Shown here in pieces: positions 4,551 to 44,992 of a stretch of DNA of 64,000 bases. The DNA comes from Bilabrum cf. latius (Eukaryota). The notes below the pieces were generated by a model that was not told the origin of the DNA, ran no database searches, and saw only the letters and a program-made list of their open reading frames with translations. The stretch covers positions 124,001-188,000 of the forward strand of contig OZ237738.1 in the NCBI GenBank assembly GCA_965178125.1, written 5' to 3'. A program made the translations under genes and the position numbers. Within the stretch, counting starts at the first letter, position 1, and each line of letters starts with the position of its first letter.

Positions 4551-4608
<58 letters not shown>

Positions 4609-9700: not shown

Positions 9701-10279
9701 GACCTGAACGCGAAAGCCATCGGCAGGGGGCCCCGAGGAGAGGCCCTGACCTGCGGGCCCGCACCCGATGAGCAGCTGCTGTGCCCCGCGTGGCACGTGC
9801 TGGCCTCCTCGGGAGAGCGCGTATTCCCCAACGACACGGCAAGGTTTCCCTACGATGCGTACCACTACGTAGGCGGGACAGGGAGGGTCGGGCGGCGCAT
9901 TGGTGGCGCCGTCGGCAGTGGTGGAGAGAGTCATGCCGTCGGTGCGTACGAGTACGGGGTGCCGTCCTCATCGCCAGTGGGCCACTTCGACTTCTTCAGC
10001 AACCCCTAGGAGCAGGACTTCATTAAACTGGCTCCTTCCGCGGAATGGGCTGCCTTTGGGCTGCCTGCATCGGTGCAGGACGGCATGAAGCCGGGCTGGT
10101 GGGACGTCAACGTGGGCGGGGTGACTGCGCGGGTTCCCATGGACGGCATGGAACCCAGCCACCGGATTTGGACCACCGTGAACATCGGCCCCGAGATGGG
10201 CATCGGTGGGGAGTGTGCTGCTCAGTTTGCGCAGTGGGAGGTCGCTGGATACGACGTGCTGGCCCAAGGGAGCCAGTGA
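6734..10279 (+). CDS. Secreted GH56 hyaluronidase-like + EGF-like + plant-type Cys-rich domain fusion (7 in-frame TAG)
   Basis: Signal peptide MKLMKSISLFFGSMLTTALA. GH56 motifs 'NGGVPQAAN', 'GNAVFDFESWTP', 'RPNALWGFYGFP', 'STALYPSIY'. EGF 'CGGHGAC...CACFEGWSGPDC'. Then 'DPGMR...EGWTFCN...WLMLY...SCWKNNG..CDGD..DVTRY...FPYDAYHYV...SNP*EQ'. TAGs at 6887, 6917, 7001, 7049, 7913, 9617, 10007; ends TGA. Confidence 0.85.
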
Positions 10280-19200: not shown

Positions 19201-22200
19201 AGAGAAGGAGGGCGGCGCCAGTGAGAGACGGCAGGTGCCTCCAGCACCATCTCCTGGTGCGGCGACTCAGGCGCAGCGAAGCCCCTCGAATCGGTCTTCG
19301 CCAGAGGGAAGTTCTAGCGCGAGTGTGGCTAGCTCCTCGCCGCCAGCCCAGAGCTCAGGTGCCGCGGCTGCTGCGAGCCAGGCCTCGACACTGGCCGAGG
19401 AAGAGCTCGCCGTTCCCTCCAATGCCAGCGCGTTGGATGGCGCCTCGTGGGAGCATGCGTCCATGTTCGACGGGGAGCTGCACCAGCACGCATTGTTTGA
19501 AGTACACGGGCAGCGGGCTCTGTCCCTGATCGCCAGGGCCTGGTCGCGCGAGCTCGAGCACACGAGAAGCATCATGCGCATGCCACGGCGCCCGGAGCGA
19601 TTCTTGGGTGACTCCACCACGGACACGAGCCGCGCTGATACCAAGGCGCTGGAGAAGAAGTATGTCGAGAAGAAGAACACGCTGAAGCCGAAGCTGATTG
19701 ACGAAGCCATGCGTGCGATGGGTCTGAGGCAGGGCCGCGAGCTCTGCCCACCGGCCAAGACCGAGGCAGGCACTTCGCCGTTCATGAAGCCTGGCACAGG
19801 CCTGGCCACCAAGTGGCTGCAGGATTAGCGCGCGACGAGGCAGTTCAGTTTCTCCGTGCAGGGCTTGCTTGACATAGTCGAAAAGACGGCGCTGGCCGAC
19901 GGCGTGGCCCACGGAGAGACAAAGGACACGCAGCCACCGGGCCTGACGAGCACCTTGTATCCGTACCAGAGCAGCACTGTCCAGTGGATGATCGACTCGG
20001 AGAAGCGATCGTTCGGACTTGCAGACGGAGCCATGTTCCCCGTCCCGATCGGGGCTCGCGGAGACCGCAAGCTGTGGATCAACACGTTCGGCCAGGTGCA
20101 GGACAGGCTGGCCATTCGAGGGCCCCCAATGACTGGTGGTGGCATCCTCGCAAGTGAGATGGGCCTTGGCAAGACGATCATGTCCATTGCCACCATTCTG
20201 GCCAATCCCAGGCACCCGGACAATTGCGATCAGGCAATCCCGCAGGACTTGAACTAGACGTTCCAGCAGGCCGCCCAGGTCAAGTCTTCAAACATCGCGC
20301 GAACCCACGAGCTGCCCATGATGCGATACGCTATTGTAGCTCGGTTTGCGGGCCTGCTGAAAGCCTCAGAAGTAAAGGAAGCAGCCAAGGGGAATTGGCC
20401 CGGTGACTTTACGGCTCGCACGTCGCGGTCCGGCTTCCGCCTGCGCCAATCGAGCGATCTGCGCACCGAGGACTATTTGCGTATGGTGCCGCGGCCGCGG
20501 GCCAAGGCTACGCTCGTGGTGTTGCCCGTGTCTCTGATCGGGCAATGGGCTACAGAGATCGAGAAACATGCTCCTTGCCTGTCGGTGGTGACCTTTCACG
20601 GCCAGAAGCGCAAGCAGATTCCACCCGTTGCCTTCCTTGGCGCTGACGTCGTGCTGACCACGTACTCTCTGCTCACCACGGAATGGAACGTGCTGGAAAT
20701 GATCGACTGGCACCGCATCATGTTTGACGAGTCGCAGAGCGTCAAGGGCAAAGCCAGCAAGGTCTCGCTTGGCGCCACCTGGCTTTGTGCGTCCAACAAG
20801 TGGCTCGTCAGCGGCACTCCCTTCACGAAATCGGGGCACACTGACCTCAGCGGCCAGCTCCGCGTGCTGCAGGCCACGCCATACGACGAGAACATCATGT
20901 TTGCCTCCTCGATCGAGAAGCCGTTCTACACGATGACCAAGGCCCACGCCAAGAGGGTCGACTCGAGGAAGACCTGCGAGGACCCGCGGGGCAACGTCGG
21001 TGCGTTCCTCGGGCTCTGGTCGCAGATCGGTCGGCGGCACACCAAGGCGCGGCTGGCACAGACCAAGCAGCTGTGCCTGCCCGGGCGGTCCTACAAGCTC
21101 GAGTTCGTGCAGCCCTCCGCCGATGAGACGCTGCTAACGCAGGCCCTCGTGCAGCGGATGGGCGAGCGATTCGCTGCCATGACCCGTTTCGGGGAGTCGC
21201 ATGCGCTCAACCGGTTTGCCCGCATCGAGTAGCTGGTCAACCGAGTGCGCATGGGAGCTGCACTGCCCAGCCTCGTCGAGCTGAGCAACTGGGGGGCTCG
21301 GGAGGCCTTCAAAGTGGACAGAACGTCCCAGGACGGCCAGAAGGTTATCAACACGCTGACCAAGAGCGTGTCGGAGATCATCGCAAAGCTCAAGAAGGAC
21401 CAGGAGAAGCAGGTCAAGGAGCTCGAGAAGCAGGGTATCGTGGACGAGCAGCGCTACAAGGACGTGAGCTGGGCCAGGAACATCAACTACCTCAAGGAGG
21501 TGGAGAAGATCCTGGAGAAAGTAGACGAGGAGTGCTGCATCTGTCTCGAGCGCATGGATCGGCCCACGCTCACGCCATGCTTGCACCTTTTCTGCCACGG
21601 CTGTATCCAGGGGGTCGTGAATGCCGCCACCTACAGCGCCCCGACCTGCCCAATCTGCCGCACGGGCTTCAATCGCTCCACCAAGTTCACCGAGCTCACC
21701 CAGGACGTGACATCGGCCAAGAAGGAGGGGGCCAAGGCCAAGGCGGTTGACCCGGAGAAAGAGGACGTGATGGTTTCCACCACTGGAGGAGCCACCGTGT
21801 CCGTCAAGGGCAACATCGCGGCGGCGTGGAGGCGCTGCAAGGCGGACGCGCTGAACTGCTCCAAGCTGAGCCACCTGGTAACGTGCATGCGGCGCGTGTT
21901 TGCAGCTGACAGGGGGTCCAAGTGCATCGTGTTCACGCAGTTCAACGATGTCGTGAACACGGTGCGGGCCCGCCTCCGCGCCGAGGGAATTGACCACGAG
22001 TTCATCTCCGGCTCCATGTCACAGCCCAGGCGACAGGCGGCTATGCAGCGGTTCGCTGGAGACCGCAGCTGCAAGGTCTTTGTGCTCACGCAGAAGAGTG
22101 CGGCTGTCGGACTCAACCTGACGTGCGCCAACCACGTCTTCTTCATGGAGCCGTCCATGAAGATCCAGCAGGAGAAGCAGGCGGTGGGCCGCGTGCACAG

Positions 22201-23041: not shown

Positions 23042-23270
23042 GCAGGCCCTGATAGGCAGGCTGTGCTGCTGGCATTTTGGCGTGTGCGGCGAGCTATGCA
23101 TGTTTCGCTTCTATATATAAGTATTCCACAGAGTAGAACACCCGAAAGGTTGCTTTCATTTGCACTGGCCTTTCCAGGTGCATCACATGGTGGCGGCCCA
23201 CTGGCAACTTGGCCTGGAGAATCTATTCCCCGCGTGCAGATCACGCCAATACTGCTCACTAAAGGTGTTT

Positions 23271-25364
23271 ATGGCATCGCCAGGACACACTCTTCAAGAT
23301 TTCCCGGATGTACGTGCTTTGCCAAACCCTGCTCGCGAGCCTCTTTAGGACTCAGACAAAGCCTCTGCGAATGGACTGCGAATCATGTCTGTAAACGCGT
23401 ACGCCGGCCACGCCATGCCATCTGCTCTGTCTTGCATTTTGCCGAGGGGTCATCACGTAGAAGGCTCTATCGGTGCCCCGTCTTGGCGGTGGAGGGAATA
23501 GTGCAAGCGTATCGAGCAGTAGCAGCCAGACATTGTTGGTTTTCAGGAAGTTTTTCGATCTTCCGCTGTACGACTGTTCGAAGGCAAGCTAGGAGCTTCA
23601 TACCAATTCGTTTATAGTCAAGCATTTAATATGAAGGGCTGGGTTGCTTTTATATCGGTTACGGCATGCTGTGTTGTGGTCGGTATCATGATTTGCTTGC
23701 GAGTGGTTGGTCTCGTCGAAGCACTGCTAGGAATCAATTTACACGGAGAGTTACAGCCATCCAGCTTAGCACAAATAACATCAGCAATAGTTCTGGAGTT
23801 CTGCGTGTATTACTGGCTGAAGAACACCCCACTAGGAGACTTTTTGCTGGGCGATTTGTCTGGTGGGATGGTACTGGCACTGCGGCGGAAGAAGGTCCTC
23901 CTGCGATCGTTCCGGTCTGAGCATTATCGAATGGGTGCTCATGATATACTGTCATGGGGCCGACCACGCGTTTGGTAGGCAATCGTGGTCGACGTGATCG
24001 GCGCTGCGACCCAAGGGCACCCCGGTGCTACCCACGAAGCCGTCAAGCCGCTCAAGAGCAACACAGGTGCACAGCATGCAGCTGAGAATCGCAAGAAGGA
24101 CCTTTGCGCTGAAAGCAGCAGGGTTGAACCCACCGCGGCTACAAATTGAGGACAAGCGGCGGGCGAGTCCCGGCTAAGCGCAAGCAGCATCCCAGCGTCC
24201 CACGGCGGTGCAAAGGGAGGTGCCAGTAGCACTCGCATTGAGATTAGCGCCGACGGCTCGCCAACCTGCAGGAACAAATCTCTCGTTGGATCCAGCAGTA
24301 GGGGCGAGGGGCCCCCGGCGGCCTCGGCAAGCGAGCACGATCGCGCCTGCAGCAGCCATGGCGCGGACCGCCCGCCGACTGCTGCCTCTGCTGCCTCGAT
24401 ATCGCGAGTGCTGCTGGTGCACGCGCATGCCCCGCTGGGCGAGTGCGAGCACACGGACCGAGCGCGCATGCTGGAGCTGCGACTGGCGATCGAGGCGGCT
24501 CGGGGCATGGGCAGGGGCACGTTGCACTCATCGAGCGAGGCTTCTACAGACGGTCCCATCGCGACCGGGTCTGAGTCTAGCTCTAGCTCCGAGCCTACAC
24601 CTACCTCTGGCAGGGAGCATCCAATCGTTGTGTTCGGCGACTTGAATGCGCGCTTCCGCTCGATCACCATCAAGGAGATCGGGCTATGGTCGGCCACCGC
24701 CAGTGCCAGCCGGCACGTGAGACGCAGGTCTGGGACTCACCGCATGGATTGGCGCACCTGGGATAACCAGGAGAACTACTTGACTCGGGGCTCATCCAGG
24801 GAACTGGACGGCAAGCTGGACTGGATCATGTTCCACTCGGGGGGCAGCGAGCGCTGGGGCAGCGAGGGGCAGCGACAGGGGCAGCGGTAGGGGTAGGGGC
24901 AGGTGCACGCCGAGAGCACGGGCACAGGTACAGGCGCGGGCATGGGGCGTCTTGACGATGTCGGGGGCGGTGCAAGAAGCAGCAAAGCAGGGAATTCACT
25001 GCGACCTGTCACCGATACATCTGAATCAGGTGCATCAGGTGCGTCAGGTGCGTCGGGTGAATCACTTGAAGAGCCACGACGAGGCAGCTAGGAGCAGATG
25101 CTGGAGCCATTCTCTGCAAGTAAAGGCAGCGTAGATTGCAATTGTCCGGAGTTTGACAGCGACGGAGAGAAGGATTGGCGCTCCCTTGCATGCCCGGTGT
25201 GGGCGGTGCACGAGGACGCCCGGGTGCAGTCAGAGCAGCGCAAGGCCGACCAACAGGCGCTCTCTCCTGCCATGGTGCTGCGGGATGCGTGCGTGTGCCT
25301 GTGGGAGCCTCAGGCTCCCTCGGACCACTACGCGGTGGCGGCTGATTTTGAACTGGTGGCTTGA
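23271..25364 (+). CDS. EEP (exonuclease/endonuclease/phosphatase) family protein with internal TM helices, copy A; 7 TAG and one in-frame TGA (24147), possibly disrupted
   Basis: 'LRIMSVNAYAG', 'PDIVGFQEV', 'LLVHAH', 'VVFGDLNA', 'KLDWIMF', 'PSDHYAVAADF' all lie in one frame. Collinear with copy A' at 34953-36803. Confidence 0.78.
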
Positions 25365-25392
25365 TTGTATTAGACAATTAATCCTAACCTTT

Positions 25393-28300
25393 TCAGGACA
25401 ATATCGATATCAGCCAGCTGCTGACTCTCACCAACACCGACACCAAATCCAGGCACACCATCAGCATGACAGCAGGCCCGGCCACCATCAGCCGCTCTTG
25501 CGCCCAGACCTCCTGTTGAAATCCAGTCGACACGAGTCGGTCCAGCTCATGCCCTGTCCGGCCCCCGTCGCATACCGACAGCGGACACGCACCTACCACA
25601 CATGCTATTGCCCATGCAGCTGCCACCAGCCCCACCACGTCCCTCCATATCCCAAAGGCCACCCTCCACGGGTCCCTGGTCCACACCCGGGCCAGACGAG
25701 GGGCCACAACCCCGTGAGCAAGCAGGAAGGCCCAGCAGGCCGACTAAGACTCCCAGGCTAGGACTGCACCAAGCCTGGTGGTCAGAAGCAAGGAGTAATG
25801 CTTGCCCAAATATGCGGCGGTCCGAATCACAGGGGGGTCTACCTACTGAGGCCTTGGCTATTGCAGCTGGTGTGCTCTTCGCGAGTGCTCGTTGGAATCA
25901 GTGTACCCCTGCATGGACAAGGGCACAACTTTCATCTAAGACTCCAGTGTCGGTCGGTATTGTACCAGTATAGCCCCCAACACATCCTAGTCAGTCCACA
26001 CTAGCCAGCATCTAGCCGCCATTGACAAGGACTCGGCTGCCAACAAGGAAATGGCGACAGATGACTCCCCGGCAAGGAAGCAGCAGCCAGCTCCGAGAAG
26101 CAAGGCAACTAACCGAAGCGCGTCAAACACCGCGATCGCCAGTTCTGGAGCAATAACCATTCTCTAGGAGTTGGACGCGAGCTTGGCAACACTCGCGCCA
26201 CCAACAGCGAAAGAATTGGCGCGCACAGCCGATCTCACCTCTGCACGTGGAGCTCCTCGCAGCCTCGCCTGCATCGGCCCCTGGTGCTTGCTGGGTGGAA
26301 GCGTGCCAACTACCGTCCGCTCCGAGCTAGATTCGCCCTTTTCGCTGGGATTCTTTGCCGCATCACTCCCGTTGCTGCGTATAGGAGGCTCCCAGTCCAC
26401 CTCGCTAGATCTGCAGCAGTGCTTAGACATCACTGGACTATCGATCAAACTGCTGTCCCGACCAAGGCCCCACGGTTCGACGAACTAACTGTCCCCAAAA
26501 TGCTCATCGATCTTTGAAGCCCCTGCAATGTTTGGCCCTCGATGCGTGCTCTCGTGCGAGTGTACATCTACTTCCACTACGCCTTCATGGGTTCCATCAA
26601 CAGTTGACCAACGAGACCCTGTCTCTGTCTCAGCTCTTTGTAGCAGCTGTTTGCCAGCACTGCATTGCTCAGCTTGGGTGTCAAGCATATGCTACAGTTG
26701 ACGACCCCATGCGTACGATAGCGCCAGCAACACCGCCATCACGGCACACACGCTTGCAATGGCATACGTCCACGCCCACGTCCCCCCGCAATCAGACACG
26801 CTCGATCCTGTCCCGCCTGAGGCGCATGGAATTGACACTGTGACACTCACGCTCTACGGGTCGCTCGCCGGCAGCCACACGCCACCGAGCGCTCGCCCAT
26901 GCTCCCGACGCAGCATCGCGCCCAGTCGCTATGCCACGGCCCCTGCTGATCTGACCCTCTGCAGCACCTTGCCCTGGAGCTGGACGGCGGGCAGCGGGTC
27001 CAGGCGCAGCTGCACTCGCACTCGCATAGGCAACACTGGCGCGTCCGTCTGCGGCGGCACTGGTGGATCGCGTACGCTGGTGCCAGACCCAGTGCCATCT
27101 CGGCTGGCTGCACCAGGCTGATACACATCGTCGGCACGAGCTGGCATCGCAGCTATTTCCAGTATCACAGCTTCCACACGACGCTGGTCCAGCTCGGTTG
27201 CGTTCCCAGCGCCCCCCGGCTGGAACGACGACTCCCACTCCCCAAGCACGTCCGCCACATCGGCCGAGATCTCGTGCTGCATGAAGGCCACCTGTGCTGG
27301 GCTGGGATCCGGGTACTGCAGGCCGGGGATCTCAGCGGTGGCATCAATAGGCACTTGCGCTGCAGGCCAGCGGTTGTAGTCGAACGCCAGCTGGAATGAT
27401 ACCGTGGCCCGCGACAGCTGCTCCCGCTGCATCCATCGAGACCCGAACACTTCAACCAAGCCACCGGGCCCGTCTCGCACACATCTCACGTCTGGATCCG
27501 CGGGCTGGTCAGGCGACGATCGAGCATACCGTGGTGGCTGTGCCTTGCTCCAATCCGGCTCTAGCTATGCCACGATGCCTCCGGGCTGATGGCTTCCAGA
27601 TCCGTCCACAGGCGGGCCTCCCGCCATGCCCGGGAAGCCCGTCCAGAACGAATGCCACACACGCGCCGTGTCCAGCACCAGCCGCCAGCCCGACCCTATC
27701 CCCTTGTCTGCTACTGAGCCAGTCCTTGCCTCCTCACGCCGAGCCCACCGCTCCAGCCCCACATCCACCGGCAGCAGGCTGACGTCGTCACACTCCATCC
27801 GACAAACGGGCCGGAACCGGAAAGCCCCGATGTTCGACGTGCTATTGCACACCCACGATCCGCCATCGATTCTAGGCAGGGTACGGTTGGCGGGCGGTGG
27901 CTCGATGCGATGCAGCGCCGCCCCGCGGTACCTGGCCACGGGGCCCAGCAGCGGGTTCACAGAGCCGGCCTGCAGATACCACGGCTCCGGCGCAGCAGCT
28001 GTGGGAGACCTCGCAGGCTGCGTCTCACTGGCATTGACACCCAGCTTGCCGTGCCATTGCCCCCGCTGCACAGGGTATCCGGGCGTCCACTCGCCGCCCG
28101 CCTGTGCCGCCCTTGACTCGGCTGCAGCGGGATAGTCGAAGTGCATGGGATCGTAGTTGCGCGGCTGCGAGTCCTGGTCCGCAAAGCCTGCCATGGGCAT
28201 GCAGGCTAGTCGGGCCTTGCGCTGCCATGCGGGCCTGCGTGCCTGCTCCCGGATCCATGCCTGCACAACTGCATCGTAGGCCGGGTCAGTGTATTTGAGA

Positions 28301-29928
28301 CCCGGGGGCACGACAGGGGAACACGACCGGGAGGCTAGGCATGCGGGATCGGCCAGCAGCACCAGCATCCCTCGTTCATTACGCCGTTCAGTGAGTGGGT
28401 GTCGATAGCTCGCGCACTCTGCGCTGGTATATTGAGTTGTTGGCTGCCTGGTCACAGCAGCCGTATTGACGATGATCTACGATACGTGCAGGCGGTTCAC
28501 CTCCCACGCATACTGAGCAGGCTTAGATCGCATGTCATCATCAACCGCACTATCGTGATCTGCACCTTGGACAGCCGCATACGCTATCCGCAGCACAGCC
28601 ACAGTGCCAGGCGGGTACACCACCGTGAGCACCTGGTGCCATCGGTTGAAGGTGCCCAGCACCGAGCTGGGGTACTGGGGGTCGCCACCACGCAGTGGAG
28701 GTGTGGTGAGGGTACCACTAGAAGCTATATTGTACTTTGGAACACTTTTTTGTGCGTTGTAGTAGGGCAGGTTCGGGTTGCCAGTGACAGGTGCCGGACA
28801 CGTCGCATTGCTGCCACCTACTGCAGTGGGCCTGTGCTGGAGCTGCCCCCAATCGATTGCCTGTAGGCATGTATCGTTCGGCATGACGGGCCTGTCCCAG
28901 GGAGAGCACCGCGAGCTAAACACGGCGCTGGAGCAGTTGGTCCACGTCTGCCAGAACGAGGTCACAAATCTTCCTACTTGCCACCGGTAGTACCTCTAGG
29001 GGCCATTGTTGTACAAGAAAATCGTCTTTGTAGAGTACTGCTGCCGCGGAACAGGCGCCCATGGCGTCTCGGCTTGCTGAGAGAGTGCACCGCTCTATTT
29101 TGCACCGGTGCGCGCTAGTATGGGAGGATTGCTAGATCCTCTGCCACTACCATCGCCAGGTTCAACGCCAACGCCGCTTCCACATCTACTGTCACTGCCT
29201 CCGCCACTGGAAGACTCAGTCCGGTTGTATTTGTAGTAGGCCGAGCCGAGTAAGCCACCGGATAGCGAGTTTGTCGACTTAACAAGGATGCTGAACCGGA
29301 ACATCCACTGCTCCTCAGTCCAGGGCTCCACGGACCTCGTGGGAGGCAGCAGGGCAGAGGGACGGGTGGGCAGGCCGAGCGCCAGGACCGGCGGCTCCTG
29401 CGGGGTCATGGCTGCGGCGGCCAAGCCCTGATCTGCCGTCATGAGAGATGGCAGAGCGACTGCCCGGTGCACAGCTGGGTCGAAATCGGGGCCCGCAGTC
29501 CAATTCCAGCGATGCCTAGGCTGGATCGCGGCATCGCCGGACCACGGCTGGAACACCAGATCGCATCCCCATCCAACTTGCTGTCGAGCTGCATCAGCAG
29601 GAGATAGAACGCGATGCGATCTTGCTTTGGGGTATCCGATACCCAAACTGCTTGGATCTGGAGCAGCTATCGCCGTTCCTGCGTTGTGATAGTTGGTCGA
29701 AGGCAGATGACAGGAACGAAGTTGGATGACAGAGCTCCTACCGCAGTTGTTGCTCAATTTAATCGTACCATTACAGACAGCTTGTCTAGACCTGCCCATA
29801 CCGAATGGGATGAGAAGCTGCGGATTGCTCGAGCTAATTGCAGACCCAAGAGAAGCAAGAACAGCCTGAGGCTTCAGGACACTACCTGCTACCACCAGCA
29901 CGCCACAAAAAAGCCTAAGTGACTTCAT
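25393..29928 (-). CDS. Orphan ~1480-aa protein: signal peptide, large ectodomain, C-terminal multi-TM region (copy B; about 14 TAG; intron 29679-29768)
   Basis: One continuous frame through TAGs from MKSLRLFCGVLVVAG to TGA at 25393. Hydrophobic segments 'WAWTYAIASVCAVMAVLLAL', 'VVGLVAAAWAIACVVG', 'AVMLMVCLDLVSVLV'. Paralogous to 30076-34924. Confidence 0.75.
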
Positions 29929-30075
29929 CCCAAAACCTTTCGCATAAATACGAACAAGGCTGGTACCCAAGGCGAAAGGGTGTGGTCGCCATTTCCTGTG
30001 TGGTCGCATTCTTTGGTCGCGACCGTTAATGAACATACAGTGCCAATAAGAACCAGAAGGACCACGCCCTGGACC

Positions 30076-33000
30076 ATGACTATAGTAGGCAGCCACCAAT
30101 ACTATCTACTGCTGCTTACCATGCTGTCACTTCTGGATGTCAGGCAAAGACTCGCAGCAGGAACACTGACTGCAGCTCTGCTAGATTCGTCGCCTCAGGT
30201 GCTAGTCCCATTTGGACTGGCAAATTTAACAGGTGTTACATGTAATGGTTAGGCAGTGCATGTATTTACTTGGGTTGTACATGCAGCATCGAGCATACAG
30301 GTCTGTTCTGTGCACGCATTCTACCACCGCAGGAACGGCGATAGCTGCTCCAGATCCAAGCAGTTTGGGTGTCGGATACCCCAAAGCAAGATCGCATCGC
30401 GTTCTATCTCCTGCTGATGCAGCTCGACAGCAAGTCGGATGGGGATGCGATCTGGTGTTCCAGCCGTGGTCCGGCGATGCCGCGATCCAGCCTAGGCATC
30501 GCTGGAATTGGACTGCGGGCCCCGATTTCGACCCAGCTGTGCACCGGGCAGTCGCTCTACCTAGTTTGATGGCCGCCGACAATGGTACCGCCGCCGCAGC
30601 CATGACCCCGCAGGAGCCGCCGGTCCTGGCGCTCGGCCTGCCCACCCGTCCCTCTGCCCTGCTGCCTCCCACGAGGTCCGTGGAGCCCTGGACTGAGGAG
30701 CAGTGGATGTTTCGGTTCAGCTTAGGGGATGGTAAGGCCATGTATCCAGCCGCTGGCGGCTTGCTGGGCTCGGGCTATTTCAAGTACAGCCGAGAGCGCA
30801 GCACTATGGAGCGCAGTGGTCTTGATGGAGGGGCTACTCATGAGCCGACTCGAGTAGATCCAGGGCGCTAGTACCCGTGGGCTACTCCTGAGCCGACTCG
30901 AGTAGATCCAGGGCGCTAGTACCCGTGGGCTACTCATGAGCCGACTCGAGTAGATCCAGGGCGCTAGTACCCGTGGGCTACTCATGAGCCGACTCGAGTA
31001 GATCCAGGGCGCTAGTACCCGTGGGCTACTCCTGAGCCGACTCGAGTAGATCCAGGGCGCTAGTACCCGTGGGCTACTCCTGAGCCGACTCGAGTAGATC
31101 CAGGGCGCTAGTACCCGTGGGCTACTCATGAGCCGACTCGAGTAGATCCAGGGCGCTAGTACCCGTGGGCCCCCATCCCTCGGCTGCAATACATGTCGAG
31201 GACGGGCATCTTATATAATATGGGCCCCTAGCGAGTTTTTCGCTGGCAGATTGGACGGTTCGTGACAATGCTCCGGCAGACGTGGACCAACTGCTCCAGC
31301 GCCGTGTTTAGCTCGCGTTGCTCTCCCTGGGACAGGCCCGTCATGCCGAACGATACATGCCTACAGGCAATCGATTGGGGGCAGCTCCAGCGCAGACCCA
31401 CTGCAGTAGGTGGCAGCAATGCGACGTGTCCGGCACCTGTCACTGGCAACCCGAACCTGCCCTACTACAACGCAGCAGGATAGACCAGTTTCGATTTTTC
31501 GAGCGTTGCCTCCAGTCGCATAGAATTCACACCTCCACTGCGTGGTGGCGACCCCCAGTACCCCAGCTCGGTGCTGGGCACCTTCAACCGATGGCACCAG
31601 GTGCTCACGGTGGTGTACCCGCCTGGCACTGTGGCTGTGCTGCGGATAGCGTATACAGCTGTCCAAGGTGCAGATCACGATATTGCGGTTGATGATGACA
31701 TGCGATCTAAGCCTGCTCAGTATGCGTGGGAGCTGAACCGCCTGCACGTATCGCAGGTCGTTCGAAATACAGCAGCCACCGATCGTACTTTGAGCTCTGA
31801 GGTCAGCAGCGTTTCCTGCAGCGCGGCGCGTTTTGTACCTGGCATGTATCCATACAGAATAGCTACACCGGGCGTGCTGGTGCTGCTGGCCGATCCCGCA
31901 TGCCTGGCCTCCCGGTCGTGTTCCCCTGTCGTGCCCCCGGGTCTCAAATACACTGACCCAGCCTACGATGCAGTTGTGCAGGCATGGATCCGGGAGCAGG
32001 CACGCAGACCCGCATGGCAGCGCAAGGCCCGACTAGCCTGCATGCCCATGGCAGGCTTCGCGGTCCAGGACTCACAGCCGCGCAACTACGATCTCATGCA
32101 CTTCGACTACCCCGCTGCAGCTGAGTCAAGGGCGGCACAGGCGGGCGGCGAGTGGACGCCCGGATACCCTGTGCAGCGGGGGCAATGGCACGGCAAGTTG
32201 GGTGTCAATGCCAGTGAGACGCAGCCTGCGAGGTCTCCCACAGCTGCTGCGCCGGAGCCGTGGTATCTGCAGGCCGGCTCTGTGAACCCGCTGCTGGGCC
32301 CCGTGGCCAGGTACCGCGGGGCGGCGCTGCATCGCATCGAGCCACCGCCCGCCAACCATACCCTGCCTAGAATCGATGGCGGATCGTGGGTGTGCAATAG
32401 CACGTCGAACATCGGGGCTTTCCGGTTCCGGCCCGTTTGTCGGATGGAGTGTGACGACGTCAGCCTGCTGCCGGTGGATGTGGGGCTGGAGCGGTGGGCT
32501 CGGCGTGAGGAGGCAAGGACTGGCTCAGTAGCAGACAATGGGATAGGGTCGGGATGGCGGCTGGTGCTGGACACGGCGCGTGTGTGGCATTCGTTCTGGA
32601 CGGGCTTCCCGGGCATGGCGGGAGGCCCGCCTGTGGACGGATCTGGAAGCCATCAGCCCGGAGGCATCGTGGCATAGCTGGAGCCGGATTGGAGCAAGGC
32701 ACAGCCACCACGGTACGCTCGATCGTCGCCTGACCAGCCCGCGGATCCAGACGTGAGATGTGTGCGAGACGGGCCCGGTGGCTTGGTTGAAGTGTTCGGG
32801 TCTCGATGGATGCAGCGGGAGCAGCTGTCGCGGGCCACGGTATCATTCCAGCTGGCATTCGACTACAACCGCTGGCCTGCAGCGCAAGTGCCTATTGATG
32901 CTACCGCTGAGATCCCCGGCCTGCAGTACCCGGATCCCAGCCCAGCACAGGTGGCCTTCATGCAGCACGAGATCTCGGCCGATGTGGCGGACGTGCTTGG

Positions 33001-34924
33001 GGAGTGGGAGTCGTCGTTCCAGCCGGGGGGCGATGGGAACGCAACCGAGCTGGACCAGCGTCGTGTGGAAGCTGTGATCCTGGACATAACTACGATGCCA
33101 GCTCTTGACGACGATGCGTATCTGCCTGGTGCAGCCAGCCGAGATGGCACTGGGTCTAGCACCAGCGTACGCGATCCACCAGTGCCGCCGCAGACGGACG
33201 CGCCAGTGTTGCCTATGCGAGTGCGAGTGCAGCTGCGCCTAGACCCTCTGCCCGCCGTCCAGCTCCAGGGCAAGGTGCTGCAGAGGGTCAGATCAGCAGG
33301 GGCCGTGGCATAGCGACTGGGCGCGATGCTGCGTCGGGAGCATGGGCGAGCGCTCGGTGGCGTGTGGCTGCCGGCGAGCGACCCGTAGAGCGTGAGTGTC
33401 ACAGTGTCAATTCCATGCGCCTCAGGCGGGACAGGATCGAGCGTGTCTGATTGCGGGGGGACGTGGGCGTGGACGTATGCCGTTGCAAGCGTGTGTGCCG
33501 TGATGGCGGTGTTGCTGGCGCTATCGTGCGCATGGGGTCGTCAACTGCAGTCAATACTTGTGTCGCGGGATTTGCGTGGCAGTGCTGGCAAGCAGCTGCT
33601 GCAGGACGATAAAACAAGAGCTGCATCATACTGGTCAACTGTTGACGGGACCCAAGACGACGATGTTGTGGTAGGAATTAGCAGAGAGAGACCATTGGCT
33701 GGCGACCAGCTGCAGCACGCGCAACAGCCAAAGGAAGGCGGAGCTGCTGCCCGCATGTCAATGACAGCTGGTCACGCGATCAAACCAGACAGCAGCCAAA
33801 TCCCTTTTAGAGGTATCGTGTCAGTTGCAGGTTCTCCGTTTGACTGGAACCGCAGCGAGGACTGGTTGCCGCCAGAACAAAGCTGCAGCGACGAACCCGA
33901 AGATGCTCTGCAGCAGTGCGAGGCAGTCGTACATGCTGCGCAAGACGGCAGCCTCTCGCAAACAGGCTAGTCCCAGTGCAACATTCATGTGATCAGGGCA
34001 ACTAGCGGCGGCCAGTCAGGTGGTCATCGCCCTTTGGAACAGAAGCAAATGGTGGTATTGCGCTCGCTTCTGCTGCACGCAGTGATTGCAGCGGCGTTTT
34101 CACTGTACCGGCTATTGGCTCTCGTCTTGGCGTGCGTGATGTGCGCGTAGGTTGGAATGTTGGCCGTATGCCTGACTTTGCTATGCAGCGAACTGATTGC
34201 AATGGTGCTAAGGGCTGTACTGGTGCTACTGGGCCGGGACGCGGTGGGTTCAATCCTGCGTAGCGCTGGGATACACTGGTCTCAAGGCCGAGTTGCACGC
34301 GGCATGCCAGTGGTCCCGATGGGTAACAATTCCACTGGTCAGCATAGTGACATGGACCCAAATGCAGGCGCAAGGCTGTCTTAGATCGACATCTTCAGTG
34401 TCTAGTACAGCATGGATCCCACCTCGACACCCGAGCAGGATGAGTCCGCTAGTCCACAGATACGCCCACCCACCGAGGTTCTGGTTTCGACTTGTGCGAG
34501 TAGGTTCATTTCTGATCATCACTCAATTGCATTTGTGGCATAGATGGGTGCAGTCCTAGCCTGGGAGTCTTAGTCGGCCTGCTGGGCCTTCCTGCTTGCG
34601 CACGGGGTTGTGGCCCCTCGTCTGGCCCGGGTGTGGACCAGGGACCCGTGGAGGGTGGCCTTTGGGATATGGAGGGACGTTGTGGGGCTGGTGGCAGCTG
34701 CATGGGCAATAGCATGTGTGGTAGGTGCGTGTCCGCTGTCGGTATGCGACGGGGGCCGGACAGGGCATGAGCTGGACCGACTCGTGTCGACTGGATTTCA
34801 ACAGGAGGTCTGGGCGCAAGAGCGGCTGATGGTGGCCGGGCCTGCTGTCATGCTGGTGGTGTGCCTGGATTTGGTGTCGGTGTTGGTGAGAGTAAGCAGC
34901 TGGCTGATATCGATATTGTCCTGA
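30076..34924 (+). CDS. Orphan ~1590-aa receptor-like membrane protein, copy B' (about 18 TAG; intron 30248-30332)
   Basis: Signal-like N-terminus, same intron position as copy B (CNG/TAIAAP), continuous frame through TAGs to TGA at 34922-34924. Confidence 0.75.
30831..31166 (+). repeat. 7 x 48-bp coding tandem repeat (16 aa, WAT[H/P]EPTRVDPGR*YP)
   Basis: Unit GGGCTACTC[A/C]TGAGCCGACTCGAGTAGATCCAGGGCGCTAGTACCCGT starts at 30831, 30879, 30927, 30975, 31023, 31071 and 31119; no spacers. Confidence 0.95.
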
Positions 34925-34952
34925 AAATATAAGGATTAATTGTCTAATACAA

Positions 34953-36803
34953 TCAAGCCACCAGTTCAAAATCAGCCGCCACCGCGTAGTGGTCCGAGGG
35001 AGCCTGAGGCTCCCACAGGCACACGCATGCATCCCGCAGCACCATGGCAGGGGAGAGCGCCTGTTGAACGGCCTTGCGCTGCTCTGGCTGCACCCGGGCG
35101 TCCTCGTGCACCGCCCACACCGGGCATGCCAGGGAGCGCCAGCGCCGATCAGACAGTTCGGCCTGATCAGGCGGTGACGCGACATCCGGTGTCTCCTGCA
35201 CCTTCGTACTTCCTCCCGTAGAAACATCGTCCAACGCAGCACATTGGGCCATTTCTGCGTCGTGTGTTGGAGCCGGTGCCTCTGTGGCACGGCACATCGA
35301 GCTGTCGGTGGTCGTTGCACAAGTGGACGATGAATCGGCTGGCGGCTATATTGCTGCAGATGCAGCTGAGGATCGGTCGCAGCGCATTTTCATGCTATGA
35401 GCGGTTGCTAATGCGGACACTCGCGGCGGCGTGGTGTAAAAACAGTTGCCAGCAGCTCCTCCCGGACAAAATAGGATCCAGTCCAGCTTGCAGTCTGGCT
35501 CCTGTGCTGACCCCTTCGTCAGCACGTTGCTGCTGTCGTCCCACGTGCGCCATTGCAGAGGCTCGGGTGCTTCCAACCCAGCACTGTCTGCGTTCCCTGC
35601 TGTCCTAGACTACCTGTCGGCCACGTGAGCTGCCACGCTCGCGCATGCCGAGTGCAGGCCAAGCCCGGCCACAGTCTGAGAGTCAGGGCCTGCATTCAGA
35701 TCCCCCATCAAGACCAATGGTAGGTTCGCAGCAGCACGAGCGCTACCCGTGCCTCCCAGCGGTAGTGCAACAGACCCACAGGCAGCCTGCGCCCATCCGT
35801 TCCAGCACCCAGAGGTCACGGTGGAGCCCAGCCATGGAGCTGCCTTGCTCGATGAGTGCAATGTGCCCCTGCCCATGCCCCGAGCCGCCTCGATTGCCAG
35901 TCGCAGCTCCAGCATACGCGCTCGGTCCGTGTGCTCGCACTCGCCCAGCGGGGCATGCGCGTGCACCAGCAGCACTCGGGCCCACGTCGGGCCAGCGGCA
36001 CGCGCCACCGAGGCTGCTTGGTCCTGGGTGGGTCGCTCTGCAGCCCCAGAGTGCTCGTATATGCCCTCCTCGCCGATGGCTGCATCGATTACAAATGCTT
36101 GCCATACCCGCTCGCGCCCCCAGGACAGCACGTCGTGCGCCCCCATGCGATACGGCTCAGAGCGGGCGGCTCGCAGCCGCACCTTGCCTCGGCGCAGAGC
36201 CAGCACCATACCGCCAGACACGTCTCCCAGCAGAAAGTCCCCGAATGTAGTTCCACTTAACCACAGCACCATGAAAGACTCAATGGCTGTCCAAACCACG
36301 CCCCAGTGCCACCAAGATACCCCAAGCATCATAGCGTGTGTCAAGGTGCCGGTCAAGATGCGGTTTAGTGCCGAAGCTGCGACGGCTCCAATTCCCGACA
36401 AAGCGCTCGCTGTGCACAGCAGGAATGCCCATCCCTTGAAATTGTTTGCCTAGTGATAGATTATCTCGTAATTCTCCCCGAGCTGACTTCGGTACAGCTC
36501 AACGAGGCTAGATCGGTACACCTCTTGCAGTGCAAGAACGTCCGGGGCAAGCCGCAAAATTCTGTCGCACTGGTCCTTCCAGCGCCACGATGCCTTGTTC
36601 AACGGAGGCTCAACGTGGTGATGCTATGATAGGAGGCACTGCATGGCGGTGGGCATTGCGTGGCCAGCAAACGCGTTCAATGTCATGACACGGAGATTCG
36701 ATACCCCGAGAGACTCAGCATCCCTTGGGGGCCTTCGGGCGGAAGGAATAAGCGCCTCCTAGTCCGCGTGAGACTCCTACTTGAAAAACGTAAACTCGCT
36801 CAT
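34953..36803 (-). CDS. EEP family protein with internal TM helices, copy A' (6 in-frame TAG, intact)
   Basis: 'LRVMTLNAFAG', 'PDVLALQEV', 'LLVHAH', 'VLMGDLNA', 'KLDWILF', 'PSDHYAVAADF'. ATG 36803; ends TGA. Confidence 0.82.
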
Positions 36804-38375: not shown

Positions 38376-40474
38376 TCACACCTGCTGCGCCTGCATTGAT
38401 TTCCCAGTGCCACCGCTCGGTGCCTCGATAGCCATGAGGCCGCTCCCGCCCTCACCCGATGCCACCGCGTGTGCTGCGGCAGCCACGTCTCGAGCAGCCC
38501 CGCCCGCCCCCGGGGCACCGAGCGCTCTTGCGCCCCCCCCGTGAGATTGAGCGCCGGCGTGCTTCTATGAGTCCTCGAGACTGGCACCCGTTCCTCTCTC
38601 ACCCTCCCCCTTGCCCCCGGCACCCACCCCAGCAGCTGCCTTGAGGTTCCCAGAGAACCAGCCTCCGTCGTACTGCAGAGCCTCCGTCCTTCCCACGTCC
38701 ACGTCCACAAAGTAAAGCATCCCGATGGGTAGCAGCAGCATGCACACCACGTAAATGAACCCGTAGCGCAGCACCCCCGAGTTCTGCGCGATGACGGCCA
38801 CCACGAGTGGACCCAGCCAGGAGGACCCCTTGTCCGACAGCTCGTACAGAGCAAACATCTCGCTCTGGCGGCCGGGCGGGATGAGCGAGGCGTAGAGCGT
38901 GCGCGAGTAGGACTGCACAGAGCCCAGGTTGAGGCCGTACAGGGCCACTGCGATGTACATCTCCAGCCCGGACCGCAGCCCGATCGTGCTGGAGGCGAAC
39001 CCTAGGAGGCCGTAGAGGGGCACCAGGCATATGAGACCGAGGTTCATAGCGATCATCTGCTTCTCGGTGAACCCCGTGCGCGCCTGCACCCACTCGAAGA
39101 AGAAGTTCCCGATGCCGGCGAAGATGGGAGGCACGAGCAGCAACGAGGTCAGGGCGAGCGTCTTTGAGAACCCAAAGTCCACCTCTGTGTTTGCGTAGAG
39201 CGCCCCTACGGAGGCCACAACCGAGAAGCCGTCAGAGTACACGAACCAAGTGATCAGGAAGAAAAAGAGGTGAGGCAGCTCTCGCGCCCTCGAGATGGTC
39301 GCCACGGTGCGCTGCCAGCTGAATAGCACCACGTTGCCCGCGCCCTCTGGGTACGGAGCCCCCTGCCTGGGCCGCATGGTGGTAAAGGTGTAGGTGGCGA
39401 ATGCGATCCACCACAGCCCCGCCAGTGCGCAGTTGAGAGGAAACGCGATGTTGGACGGAATCAGGAATGCGATCACCACGGCCAGTGCCATCATGACGAT
39501 GGAGCCGGCGTACCCGTAGGCGAACCCCCTCGCAGAGAGGTAGTCCATCTCCTCCTGCAGAGCCTCCTGCCCCTCCCTCGAGGCCAGGTCTCGGTTCAGC
39601 ACCGAGGGGCGACCCTTTGCAAGATCAACCAGGTAAGGGTTGTAGAATACGAACGTTGCGCCGTACAGGACATTCGCAATCACGCCAAACAAGCCTCCTA
39701 GCCACCAGGTGTCCTGGGTGGTCGCGACGATCAGAATGCAGAAGAGCGCCCCAGTGTACGTTGTGACCTGAAGAGCAAGGCGCCGATTGCTCGAAAAGTC
39801 TGCCATGGCTCCAACGCTCACGAAAACGACCGCCTAAAGCAAAACAGACAGCGAAATGGCGATAGAGGCGAAGGCGCTCGGGTCAACTCCACTTCCAGCG
39901 AATGATACGCGCAGCTTGAACAAGTCTTCCCCGTTGGACTGTAGACATTCCGATGATGTCTGCAACAGGTATGCAATAGTGGACAGTTGAGCTTTTCGAA
40001 TACTAGTAAGAGCAACGACAGCACGCATGTGAGACGCTAGTTGCATTATTTTTTGGAACTGTGACTCACCTCTGGATATCCTGCGCAAATATCTCCGCAG
40101 CACCGGTCCACCAAGCTATCTGTTATGTCATTTCTAAACAAAAATCCCTCGCTCTCGGCTGAAACTCCGGAGCAGTTTGCGAAAGAGGCAGTCGTCAGGT
40201 TGGTCAGAACATTACCGCAAATCTCCGGGAACCCAGCCGCCTCCAAACCAGCATTTTGTACCAAAAGCGGCCAAAAACCGCTAATGACTACCGTCGACAC
40301 CGCAGACGACCCCCAATCATACGCGTAGAACCCAATCACTTCAGTATCGGTTGTCGGCAGCCCTGTCGCATCCTCGCCCGCATCCGGGCTCGGACTGGGC
40401 AGTTCCGGGGATTTTTCTTCCTCAGCCGGCGAAGGAAGTGTGGATTCAGACGCTGAGACTACCTATGTAGGCAT
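38376..40474 (-). CDS. Atg22/UMF1-type MFS transporter (intron 39960-40069; 3 TAG)
   Basis: 'GFYAYDWGSSA', 'SLSVLL*AVVFVSVGAMADF', 'LSARGFAYGYAG', 'FVYSDG', 'QSYSRTLYASLIPPGRQSEMFALYELSDKGSSWLGP'. ATG 40474, TGA 38376. Confidence 0.88.
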
Positions 40475-44840: not shown

Positions 44841-44992
44841 ATTCGGTGGTCTGGATGGCTTTGAGAGGCGCGTCAATTCTGAATAATTTTTTAGAACGTA
44901 CACGCCACAAACGGCCTAAAACGGGCGAGCAATTTTCAAGCGCAGGTAGCAAGTGTGGACCACTCATTTTAAATATTTGGCGAGTATATCAA

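What the first reader, a model, noticed from the sequence alone, without database searches (positions are those of the whole stretch)
23499..36572. Internal proof that UAG = glutamine from the paralog pairs
Seen: at five homologous positions in otherwise conserved context, TAG in one copy matches a Gln codon in the other, in both directions. 23499 TAG (SWRWRE*C) vs 36570 CAG (SWRWKDQC). 23619 CAA (YSQAFNMKGW) vs 36450 TAG (YH*ANNFKGW). 23976 TAG (RVW*A) vs 36099 CAA (RVWQA). 28477 TAG (RLHVS*) vs 31754 CAG. 26692 TAG (WGRQL*) vs 33548 CAG. TAG behaves as a synonym of both CAG and CAA. A few TAGs in poorly conserved stretches face Leu or Arg instead (23520, ~36624, 34541).
Basis: seen in the sequence. 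Interest (0 to 1): 0.9.

Follow-up and report, generated by a model that had tools for sequence, protein, structure and literature searches.

The report
Protist genome reads TAG as glutamine
This stretch of a GC-rich protist chromosome uses the stop codon TAG as an ordinary glutamine codon, a rare change of the genetic code that makes standard gene prediction cut its genes into pieces.

Summary
The window is compact eukaryotic DNA. In 14 long ORFs (17,014 codons) TAG is in frame 104 times, TGA once and TAA never. The two other frames hold 233 and 255 TGA and 34 and 45 TAA. TAG is therefore a sense codon.

The paralog pairs alone do not prove glutamine. Of 25 TAG:non-TAG columns, 6 face Gln and 6 face Arg. 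BLOSUM log-odds favour Gln over Arg by only 2-4 bits.

Outside evidence settles it:
- TAG sits at a Gln column of ATG22 (Q in 14 of 19 homologs) and of a GH56 protein (27 of 43).
- Over 12 columns Gln scores +11.8 bits and the next residue +0.5, and the columns behave like true Gln columns.
- A metagenomic relative also has in-frame TAGs. Six of its 9 face the window's CAG, one at the SNF2 motif-IV glutamine, which is Q in 114 of 116 homologs.

All 14 ORFs end in TGA, and the role of TAA is open. No tRNA or eRF1 could be examined. The code is a known variant (table 15). The lineage may be new: the closest named homolog is from Cafeteria.

The parts
23160..25364 (+). Gene A, a protein of the endonuclease/exonuclease/phosphatase family. 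It has 7 in-frame TAGs. It is a single reading frame broken by one TGA at 24147-24149.
   Evidence: ORFs; frame and TGA; alignment to A'; the Pfam match was obtained on A'.
25393..30099 (-). Gene B, 1568 codons, no Pfam family, 14 in-frame TAGs, ends in TGA.
30233..34924 (+). Gene B', paralog of B and head-to-head with it, 1563 codons, 18 in-frame TAGs, ends in TGA.
   Evidence: 1089 of 1424 aligned residues are identical to B.
34953..36803 (-). Gene A', intact paralog of A, 616 codons, matches Pfam Exo_endo_phos, 6 in-frame TAGs, ends in TGA.
23499..23501 (+). TAG in A. It faces CAG at 36570-36572 in A' and CAA (Gln) in the metagenomic ortholog on L002.
36450..36452 (-). TAG in A'. It faces CAA at 23619-23621 in A and TCT (Ser) in the L002 ortholog, so the column is variable.
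23976..23978 (+). TAG in A, facing CAA at 36099-36101 in A'. Flanks are 7/10 identical.
28477..28479 (-). TAG in B, facing CAG at 31754-31756 in B'. Flanks are 7/10 identical.
26692..26694 (-). TAG in B, facing CAG at 33548-33550 in B'. Flanks are 6/10 identical.
31481..31483 (+).
36624..36626 (-). TAG in A'. It faces AGG (Arg) at 23445 in A and CGT (Arg) in the L002 ortholog. It is the best-conserved column that does not face Gln.
30831..31170 (+). Tandem repeat in B', 48 nt x 7.1 copies, with one in-frame TAG per unit (...PGR-TAG-YPWAT...). Its 7 TAGs (at 30869, 30917, 30965, 31013, 31061, 31109 and 31157) count as one event.
26639..28367 (.). Longest arm of the inverted duplication, 97% complementary to 31875-33603. 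Four further arm pairs are 86-98% complementary and are separated by diverged stretches.
39834..39836 (-). TAG at codon 90 of the ATG22-like transporter gene (38376-40103). The column is Gln in 14 of 19 homologs, among them the 11 eukaryotic or unnamed homologs closest to the query that cover it.
6917..6919 (+). TAG at codon 72 of the GH56 hyaluronidase/DUF7705 gene (6704-10279). The column is Gln in 27 of 43 homologs.
10007..10009 (+). TAG at codon 1102 of the same gene, in the DUF7705 part. Gln is the commonest residue, in 8 of 20 homologs.
9617..9619 (+). TAG at codon 972 of the same gene. Homologs have L 10, P 8, I 3, V 1 of 22. This column speaks against Gln.
21938..21940 (+). CAG at codon 1912 of the SNF2/RING helicase gene (16205-23041), the motif-IV glutamine (FTQF). 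It is Gln in 114 of 116 homologs. The relative on L001/L002 has TAG at this position.
21230..21232 (+). TAG at codon 1676 of the SNF2 gene. It faces GGC (Gly) in the relative, and homologs have A 7, G 5, D 4, V 4 of 26. The column is variable and does not fit Gln.
24147..24149 (+). The only in-frame TGA inside any of the 14 ORFs. It lies in a roughly 135-codon insert of A that A' lacks.

Best explanation
The window is nuclear DNA of a GC-rich, gene-dense protist with few or no introns. In this organism UAG has stopped being a stop codon and is read as glutamine. It makes up about 13% of Gln-type codons (TAG 104, CAA 139, CAG 569). UGA ends every gene seen here. UAA is neither a sense codon nor an observed terminator in this window.

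Shown here:
- TAG is in frame and tolerated throughout conserved genes.
- Gln is the residue that best fits the columns under TAG.
- A second, related organism shares the trait, and in its ortholog TAG and CAG swap places with the window's gene.

Inferred from what is established for other UAG-only reassignments (Panek et al. 2017, PMC5304391, passages read):
- A tRNA-Gln with anticodon CUA reads UAG but not UAA. It would be one mutation away from tRNA-Gln(CUG).
- eRF1 has lost efficient recognition of UAG.

The paralog pairs A/A' and B/B' belong to a roughly 13.6-kb inverted duplication. Its arms are kept 95-98% identical in patches, probably by gene conversion. TAG, CAG and CAA drift into one another there as synonyms.
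For: 1. TAG is a sense codon.
- In 14 ORFs (17,014 codons) in-frame TAG = 104, TGA = 1, TAA = 0. Frames 2 and 3 hold TAG 116/102, TGA 233/255 and TAA 34/45.
- Under the standard code the same genes fall into pieces.
- Pfam domains lie on both sides of TAGs, for example in the SNF2, GH56/DUF7705 and ATG22 genes.
- Five TAGs are shared by B and B'.
- At most 3 of the 104 TAGs lie before the first ATG of their ORF.

2. The residue is Gln, from outside homologs. Queries were coded with X at TAG.
- ATG22 codon 90: Q in 14 of 19.
- GH56 codon 72: Q in 27 of 43; codon 1102: Q in 8 of 20.
- SNF2 codon 1208: Q in 3 of 6.
- Summed log-odds over 12 columns: Q +11.8 bits, next Ala +0.5. The ranking is the same for pseudocounts of 2, 5 and 20.
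- Calibration: mean Q log-odds is 1.13 at the 11 TAG columns and 1.00 at 119 true Gln columns. It is -0.58 to -2.28 at columns whose query residue is E, R, K, L, S, A, Y or W. Random sets of 11 E, R, K, L or S columns are called Gln in 0.1-2.8% of 2000 draws.

3. The ortholog.
- Metagenome contigs L001 and L002 carry the SNF2 ortholog (56-68% aa identity, GC 56%) with their own in-frame TAGs.
- Of its 9 TAGs, 6 face the window's CAG; the others face T, E and R.
- One is the motif-IV glutamine, Q in 114 of 116 homologs.

4. The paralogs.
- Gln is opposite 6 of 12 moderately conserved columns, as CAG x3 and CAA x3.

5. Low-complexity runs.
- TAG takes the Q place in G-Q repeats, at 24888 and 24894 in A and at codons 859 and 861 of the 2402-5188 gene.

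6. Terminators.
- All 14 ORFs, and the relative's SNF2 gene, end in TGA.
Against: Several columns do not fit Gln.
- GH56 codon 972 has L 10, P 8, I 3, V 1 of 22.
- SNF2 codon 1676 has A 7, G 5, D 4, V 4 of 26, and Gly in the relative despite 8/10 identical flanks.
- GH56 codon 100 has P 17, A 14, V 10 of 85. Ldh_2 codon 255 faces M, A, A in solved structures.
- In the A family compared with the relative, Ser is opposite TAG in 4 of 6 columns, Gln in 1 and Arg in 1. For these six columns alone Ser scores 7.5 bits and Gln 3.0.
- Arg is opposite TAG as often as Gln in the full paralog tally (6 and 6 of 25).

There is no direct evidence of decoding.
- The window holds no tRNA gene and no Rfam match.
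- No genome is held for the window, so tRNA-Gln(CUA) and eRF1 could not be examined.
- There are no peptide data.

Two TAGs lie where a stop could equally be: codon 1245 of 1249 in the M14 gene, and codon 513 of the ATG22-like gene, beyond the alignable end of its homologs. A dual meaning is therefore not excluded.

The organism is placed from one gene only.
Confidence: 0.9

Rival explanations
1. TAG is a sense codon but stands for another amino acid. Arg is the strongest candidate, then Lys, Glu and Ser.
For: In the paralog tally Arg is opposite TAG 6 times of 25, as often as Gln. Arg scores 11.0 bits against 15.0 for Gln over 12 columns, and 9.0 against 11.0 over all 25. A' TAG 36624 faces Arg both in A and in the relative. 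Ser is opposite TAG in 4 of 6 A-family columns against the relative.
Against: In the 12 outside columns, no residue other than Gln scores above +0.5 bits, against +11.8 for Gln. Sets of 11 true Arg, Lys, Glu or Ser columns are called Gln in only 0.1-2.8% of draws. For the 12 SNF2 ortholog columns Gln scores 14.0, Glu 6.0, Lys 4.0 and Arg 3.5 bits. The relative puts TAG at a position that is Gln in 114 of 116 SNF2 homologs.
Confidence: 0.04
2. UAG has two meanings. It is Gln inside genes but still ends some genes, depending on context, as in ambiguous codes.
For: Two TAGs sit where a stop would do no harm: M14 codon 1245 of 1249, and ATG22 codon 513, beyond the alignable end of its homologs. 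With TGA plus TAA at about 1.6% per codon in the other frames, an open tail of 62 codons after a true stop would not be rare; that is my inference.
Against: Every one of the 14 ORFs can be closed by TGA. No gene needs TAG as its end. In eight ORFs, conserved sequence follows the last TAG: SNF2 is open and 56% identical to the relative beyond codon 2095; the GH56 protein aligns to about residue 1189; B, B', A and A' are near-identical to their ends; UCH and Ldh_2 have Pfam matches past their last TAG.
Confidence: 0.08
3. The TAGs are real stops. The ORFs are decaying pseudogenes, or the TAGs lie in unrecognised introns.
For: Gene A carries one in-frame TGA, so at least one copy may be damaged or may hold an intron. 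CAG to TAG is a common nonsense mutation (general knowledge).
Against: There are 104 in-frame TAGs against 1 TGA and 0 TAA in 17,014 codons. The other frames would predict about 244 TGA and 40 TAA. TAGs lie inside Pfam domains and at conserved Gln columns. Five TAGs are kept in both B and B'. A second species shows the same pattern.
Confidence: 0.01
4. The DNA belongs to a giant virus, or to a viral insert, that uses TAG = Gln, and not to a cellular chromosome.
For: Earlier notes of this scan describe giant viruses that read TAG as Gln (unchecked AI notes). Some giant viruses are GC-rich (recalled, from no call).
Against: The gene content is cellular: an ATG22 transporter, a DHHC palmitoyltransferase, a cytosolic carboxypeptidase, a UBP-type deubiquitinase, an SNF2/RING helicase and an Ldh_2 dehydrogenase, several with long low-complexity linkers. 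Pfam found no capsid, polymerase or packaging family in the 18 ORFs scanned. A scan of IMG/VR contigs with the SNF2 part found no relative.
Confidence: 0.04

Closest known systems
Iotanema spirale (fornicate): nuclear UAG = Gln with UAA kept as stop (Panek et al. 2017, PMC5304391; passages read)
   Same: Only UAG is reassigned, it is read as Gln, and UAA is not a sense codon. The mechanism predicted there, a tRNA-Gln(CUA) plus a changed eRF1, is the one I infer here.
   Different: The lineage is unrelated. In Iotanema UAA is the dominant stop. Here TGA ends all 14 ORFs and TAA was never seen as a terminator. The Iotanema evidence came from transcripts; here it comes from genomic DNA only.
UAG-only to Gln in ciliates: two phyllopharyngean lineages and Protocruzia tuzeti (McGowan et al. 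2024, PMC11687900; passages read); NCBI translation table 15
   Same: The codon table is the same: TAG = Gln while TAA and TGA are not sense codons.
   Different: The best-known ciliates are AT-rich with nanochromosome or macronuclear genomes (recalled). This window has 62% GC and GC3 of 0.71. The closest named homolog found is from a stramenopile, not a ciliate.
UAR = Gln codes, table 6: many ciliates, ulvophycean green algae, hexamitid diplomonads, Streblomastix, Amoeboaphelidium (as listed in PMC11687900)
   Same: A stop codon is turned into Gln by tRNA-Gln variants.
   Different: Those lineages read TAA as Gln too. Here in-frame TAA = 0 where about 25 would be expected from the CAA:CAG ratio. 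Reading the window with table 6 lengthens ORFs only at their upstream ends, by 1-35 codons, and adds no TAA inside them.
Phages and giant viruses with TAG = Gln: crAss-like phages (PMC9523058, listing abstract only); giant-virus MAGs with alternative codes (PMC13524828, passages read); scan notes e1-5306704, e1-5483507, e1-5483497
   Same: TAG is read as Gln while TAA and TGA remain stops.
   Different: Those are viral genomes whose hosts are unknown or use the standard code. This window looks cellular. I tested no link between them.

Membership tests
UAG-only Gln code (NCBI table 15 type) | UAG occurs in frame inside conserved protein-coding genes | tested here: met
   104 in-frame TAGs in 17,014 codons of 14 ORFs, some inside Pfam domains.
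UAG-only Gln code (NCBI table 15 type) | UAG is decoded as glutamine | tested here: met
   Tested by comparison only. Q scores +11.8 bits against +0.5 for the next residue over 12 columns, with calibration. In the ortholog 6 of 9 TAGs face CAG, one at a column that is Q in 114 of 116 homologs. There are no peptide data.
UAG-only Gln code (NCBI table 15 type) | UAA is not a sense codon and still terminates | tested here: inconclusive
   TAA is not a sense codon: 0 in frame where about 25 are expected. Termination by TAA was not seen: 0 of 15 terminators, counting 14 ORFs and the relative's gene. If TAA made up 10% of stops, P(0 of 15) would be 0.21.
UAG-only Gln code (NCBI table 15 type) | UGA terminates | tested here: met
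   14 of 14 ORFs, and the relative's SNF2 gene, end in TGA. There is one internal TGA, in gene A.
UAG-only Gln code (NCBI table 15 type) | A tRNA-Gln with anticodon CUA | not testable with these tools
   ARAGORN found 0 tRNA genes and Rfam 0 matches in the window. No genome is held.
UAG-only Gln code (NCBI table 15 type) | eRF1 altered in its stop-codon recognition motifs | not testable with these tools
   eRF1 is not in the window and no genome is held.
UAR = Gln code (NCBI table 6) | TAA is also used in frame as Gln | tested here: not met
   No in-frame TAA in 17,014 codons, and table 6 adds no TAA inside the ORFs.
Ambiguous stop/sense codes (Condylostoma or Blastocrithidia type) | The reassigned codon also serves as the terminator of genes | tested here: inconclusive
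   No ORF needs TAG as its end. TAGs at M14 codon 1245 of 1249 and ATG22 codon 513 could be stops.

The most novel reading that the evidence does not exclude
The reading is a UAG-to-Gln reassignment not yet reported, in a stramenopile-like lineage related to bicosoecids and shared by at least two species that differ by 32-44% in an orthologous protein. It would be the first nuclear code change in stramenopiles. UGA may be the only working stop. Such protists would also be natural candidates for the unknown hosts of the TAG = Gln giant viruses noted elsewhere in this scan.
Probability: 0.35. Interest if true: 0.72.

Novelty: new member of a known kind. Interest (0 to 1): 0.58.

Why it matters
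Changes of the nuclear genetic code are rare. Cases where UAG and UAA part ways are rarer. The 2024 paper I read in passages lists, for UAG-only to Gln, two phyllopharyngean ciliate lineages, Protocruzia tuzeti and Iotanema spirale. A further independent case in a GC-rich genome would help test how GC pressure and the loss of UAG stops lead to codon capture.

There is also a practical effect. Public protein collections hold this organism's and its relative's genes only as fragments cut at TAG. P0182 ends one residue before TAG codon 1351. P0181 and P0197 are split at the relative's motif-IV TAG. Any annotation or metagenome binning made with the standard code is therefore wrong for this lineage.

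Tried and rejected
- Whole genome: none is held, so tRNA(CUA), eRF1, 18S rRNA and genome-wide tallies could not be done.
- tRNA and RNA families in the window: none found.
- DHHC protein homolog search: no hit at E <= 1e-8. In solved DHHC structures its TAG codons 44/45 and 196/197 fall in variable loops, so they say nothing.
- UCH: TAG codons 1638 and 1668 lie in an insert that does not align to solved USP structures.
- Ldh_2 codon 255: the column is variable (M, A, A) in solved structures. I kept it in the 12-column score, where it counts against Gln.
- A' against solved structures: no hit at E <= 0.01.
- SNF2 codons 801 and 2095: not aligned to any of the 120 homologs.
- Sequencing runs: no RNA holder is listed. 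The four runs laid were all assembled contigs, so they show neither expression, splicing nor editing. They do show that segments specific to each of the two copies are present in several runs.
- Relatives of the SNF2 part in viral contigs and in prokaryote genome contigs: none.
- Earlier findings on this genome or on look-alike sequence: none.
- Naming the organism from other hits: the only named top hits of the GH56/DUF7705 protein are transcriptome entries labelled Gymnodinium smaydae and Namystynia karyoxenos. They do not place it.
- Pyrrolysine: considered and set aside without a test. The genes are eukaryotic, and TAG is as frequent in frame as out of frame.
Full report
**Observation.** I translated the four genes with TAG written as X, so glutamine had no advantage, and aligned A with A' and B with B'.
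- B/B' has 1424 aligned residues, 1089 of them identical. It has 19 aligned TAG columns.
- Five of these are TAG in both copies. Eight TAGs are unaligned.
- A/A' gives 11 TAG:other columns: Gln x3 (CAG 36570, CAA 23619, CAA 36099), Arg x3, and Val, Leu, Phe, Thr, Asp once each.
- Gln is thus opposite 6 of 25 columns. It is opposite 6 of the 12 whose flanks are at least 4/10 identical, and 5 of the 6 whose flanks are at least 6/10 identical.
- With Gln at 4.2% of residues, 6 of 12 has P = 4e-6. The pattern is real and not chance.

**What the region is.** Read with TAG as a sense codon, the window is tiled by long ORFs covering 80% of it. Pfam assigns these families:
- a weak TPR match, E 0.0024 and below Pfam's cut-off (2402-5188);
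- a GH56 hyaluronidase fused to DUF7705 (6704-10279);
- an M14 cytosolic-carboxypeptidase-like protein (12230-15979, minus strand);
- an SNF2/RING/UBA helicase (16205-23041);
- an ATG22-like transporter (38376-40103, minus strand);
- a UBP-type deubiquitinase (44363-50194);
- an Ldh_2 dehydrogenase (52364-53680);
- a DHHC palmitoyltransferase (53925-55709, minus strand).

This is cellular eukaryotic gene content, with long low-complexity linkers. GC is 62% and GC3 is 0.71.

The finding's interval is an inverted duplication with the order A, B (minus), B' (plus), A' (minus). B and B' lie head to head around 30100-30230. Five arm pairs are 86-98% complementary (four of them 95-98%) and alternate with diverged stretches. 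That mosaic suggests gene conversion; this is my inference. Segments specific to each copy occur without differences in contigs of several public runs, so both copies are real.

**TAG is a sense codon.**
- In the 14 ORFs (17,014 codons) the reading frame holds 104 TAG, 1 TGA and 0 TAA. The two other frames hold 116 and 102 TAG, 233 and 255 TGA, and 34 and 45 TAA.
- TAG is as common in frame as out of frame, while the other two stops are purged.
- At most 3 of the 104 TAGs lie before the first ATG.
- Seven of the 18 TAGs in B' come from one 48-nt tandem repeat and count as one event.

**Which amino acid: the paralogs alone.** BLOSUM62 log-odds for the 12 better-conserved columns are Gln 15.0, Arg 11.0, Lys 5.0 and Glu 3.5 bits. 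For all 25 columns they are Gln 11.0 and Arg 9.0.
- Gln leads, but only 4- to 16-fold over Arg.
There, synonymous and non-synonymous differences are equally common: 35 against 34 among 943 codons.
- The three TAG/CAA pairs need two changes and weigh more.
- So the paralogs suggest Gln but do not prove it.

**Which amino acid: outside homologs.**
- ATG22 codon 90: 14 of 19 aligned homologs have Gln, among them the 11 eukaryotic or unnamed homologs closest to the query that cover the column. The five exceptions (I or V) are among the most distant hits, one of them named a bacterial MFS transporter.
- The GH56/DUF7705 protein was scored against the 150 best of 1,263 representatives (E up to 0.001). 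Codon 72 has Q 27 of 43. Codon 1102 has Q 8 of 20, the top residue. Codon 116 has E 38, A 23, D 12, Q 10 of 115. Codon 62 has K 7, Q 4, E 4 of 31. Codon 404 is variable, with Q 3 of 41. Codon 100 has P 17, A 14, V 10 of 85. Codon 972 has L 10, P 8, I 3, V 1 of 22.
- SNF2 was scored against 120 homologs. Codon 1208 has Q 3 of 6. Codon 1351 is variable. Codon 1676 has A 7, G 5, D 4, V 4 of 26. Codons 801 and 2095 did not align.
- Ldh_2 codon 255 faces M, A, A in solved structures.
- Summing profile log-odds over these 12 columns gives Gln +11.8 bits and the next residue, Ala, +0.5. The ranking does not change with the pseudocount.
- As a calibration on the same alignments, the mean Gln log-odds is 1.13 at 11 TAG columns and 1.00 at 119 genuine CAA/CAG columns. 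It is -0.58 to -2.28 at columns where the query has E, R, K, L, S, A, Y or W. Random sets of 11 E, R, K, L or S columns are called Gln in only 0.1-2.8% of 2000 draws.
- Three columns (GH56 972, GH56 100, SNF2 1676) do not fit Gln. Genuine Gln codons also sit in such columns, and the calibration allows for that.

**Which amino acid: an ortholog in a related organism.** A metagenome scan returned two overlapping contigs, L001 and L002. They are identical over their 743-nt overlap and have 56% GC.
- They carry the SNF2 ortholog, 68% and 56% identical over 821 and 431 columns. On L002 the ortholog of gene A follows downstream, so gene order is conserved.
- This relative also has in-frame TAGs, and its SNF2 gene ends in TGA.
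- Its 9 TAGs face, in the window, T, E, Q, Q, Q, Q, R, Q, Q. All six Gln are CAG, with flanks 6-9 of 10 identical.
- One is the motif-IV glutamine (FTQF), which is Gln in 114 of 116 homologs.
- The window's three TAGs in the aligned part face I, G and K.
- None of the 12 columns is TAG in both species, as expected if TAG and CAG interchange freely.
- Log-odds for these 12 columns are Gln 14.0 and Glu 6.0.
- The A family is less clear. Against the relative, TAG faces Ser in 4 of 6 columns, Gln in 1 and Arg in 1. A TAG 23499 faces Gln in both A' and the relative. A' TAG 36624 faces Arg in both A and the relative.

**The other stops.**
- All 14 ORFs end in TGA.
- TAA never occurs in frame. If it were read like CAA, about 25 would be expected. 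Reading the window with table 6 lengthens ORFs only at their upstream ends. TAA is therefore not a sense codon.
- Whether TAA terminates cannot be told from 15 terminators. P(0 of 15) is 0.21 if TAA made up 10% of stops.
- A dual stop/sense role for TAG is not excluded. M14 codon 1245 of 1249 and ATG22 codon 513 lie where a stop would be harmless.

**The organism.** The closest named homolog found is the ATG22-like protein of Cafeteria roenbergensis: 51% identity over 75% of the query, against 30-40% for the fungal hits. This is one gene, so the placement near bicosoecid stramenopiles is tentative. Other named top hits come from mixed transcriptomes and do not help. A viral origin is unlikely: Pfam found no viral hallmark family in the 18 ORFs scanned, and IMG/VR holds no relative of the SNF2 part.

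**Mechanism (inferred, not shown).** Where UAG alone is reassigned, the decoding tRNA must carry anticodon CUA, which pairs with UAG but not with UAA. For Gln it is one mutation away from tRNA-Gln(CUG). eRF1 is expected to lose its affinity for UAG (Panek et al. 2017, PMC5304391, passages read). None of these parts lies in the window.

**What is known.**
- McGowan et al. 2024 (PMC11687900, passages read) list UAG-only to Gln in two phyllopharyngean ciliate lineages, Protocruzia tuzeti and Iotanema spirale. They list UAR to Gln in several other groups.
- Five full-text searches found no paper reporting a nuclear UAG reassignment in a stramenopile or bicosoecid.
Further lineages listed in the supplements of PMC5304391 or PMC11687900 would have escaped me.
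- The runs that hold the window date from 2025, so a description may be on its way or already out elsewhere.
- Earlier notes of this scan report giant viruses with TAG = Gln and unknown hosts. A giant-virus catalogue (PMC13524828, passages read) says that all isolates so far come from standard-code hosts. A protist lineage with this code is an obvious host candidate, but I tested no link.

**Verdict.** The reading that UAG means Gln is supported with about 0.9 confidence. It rests mainly on outside homologs and an ortholog, not on the paralog pairs. The code variant is known. The lineage appears to be new to it.

Noticed in passing
window 24147-24149: Gene A is one continuous frame (23160-25364) broken by a single TGA. 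The TGA lies in a roughly 135-codon low-complexity insert that A' lacks. It could be an unspliced intron, a nonsense mutation in one copy, or read-through. It is the only in-frame TGA in 17,014 codons.
   Followed up: partly
window 30831-31170: A 48-nt tandem repeat of 7.1 copies (98% matches) inside B' encodes a 16-residue unit with one TAG per unit. B has no such array.
   Followed up: partly
window 25176-35141: The inverted duplication is a mosaic. Four arm pairs are 95-98% complementary and one is 86%; the stretches between them have diverged strongly. In A/A' the N-terminal half is about 50% identical while a 43-residue block and the C-terminal 58 residues are almost identical. This suggests patchy gene conversion.
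   Followed up: partly
window 20255-20257; L001 and L002: Public protein collections hold these genes only as fragments cut at TAG. P0182 (98% identical) ends one residue before TAG codon 1351. P0181 and P0197 are split at the relative's motif-IV TAG.
   Followed up: yes
L002 1-2010: The gene order SNF2 helicase followed by an A-type gene is conserved in the metagenomic relative. The relative's contig ends within A, so it cannot show whether the duplication is shared.
   Followed up: partly
window 24888-24896 and 4976-4984: TAG takes the Gln place in short Gly-Gln repeats (GQRQGQR-TAG-G-TAG-GQ in A; GG-TAG-G-TAG-GDG in the 2402-5188 gene).
   Followed up: partly
window 6704-10279: One ORF joins a GH56 hyaluronidase domain, an EGF-like module and a DUF7705 domain. 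In the representative library the best hits carry these parts as separate, shorter proteins.
   Followed up: no
window 27209-27884: One run (X5) differs from the window at 7 single bases within one 1.9-kb contig of gene B, while three other runs match exactly. This looks like strain-level variation.
   Followed up: no
window 1-2000 and 56000-64000: GC rises to 69-74% here. Long ORFs are open on both strands and have no Pfam match, and the 2672-codon ORF at 55981-63999 is largely low-complexity.
   Followed up: no
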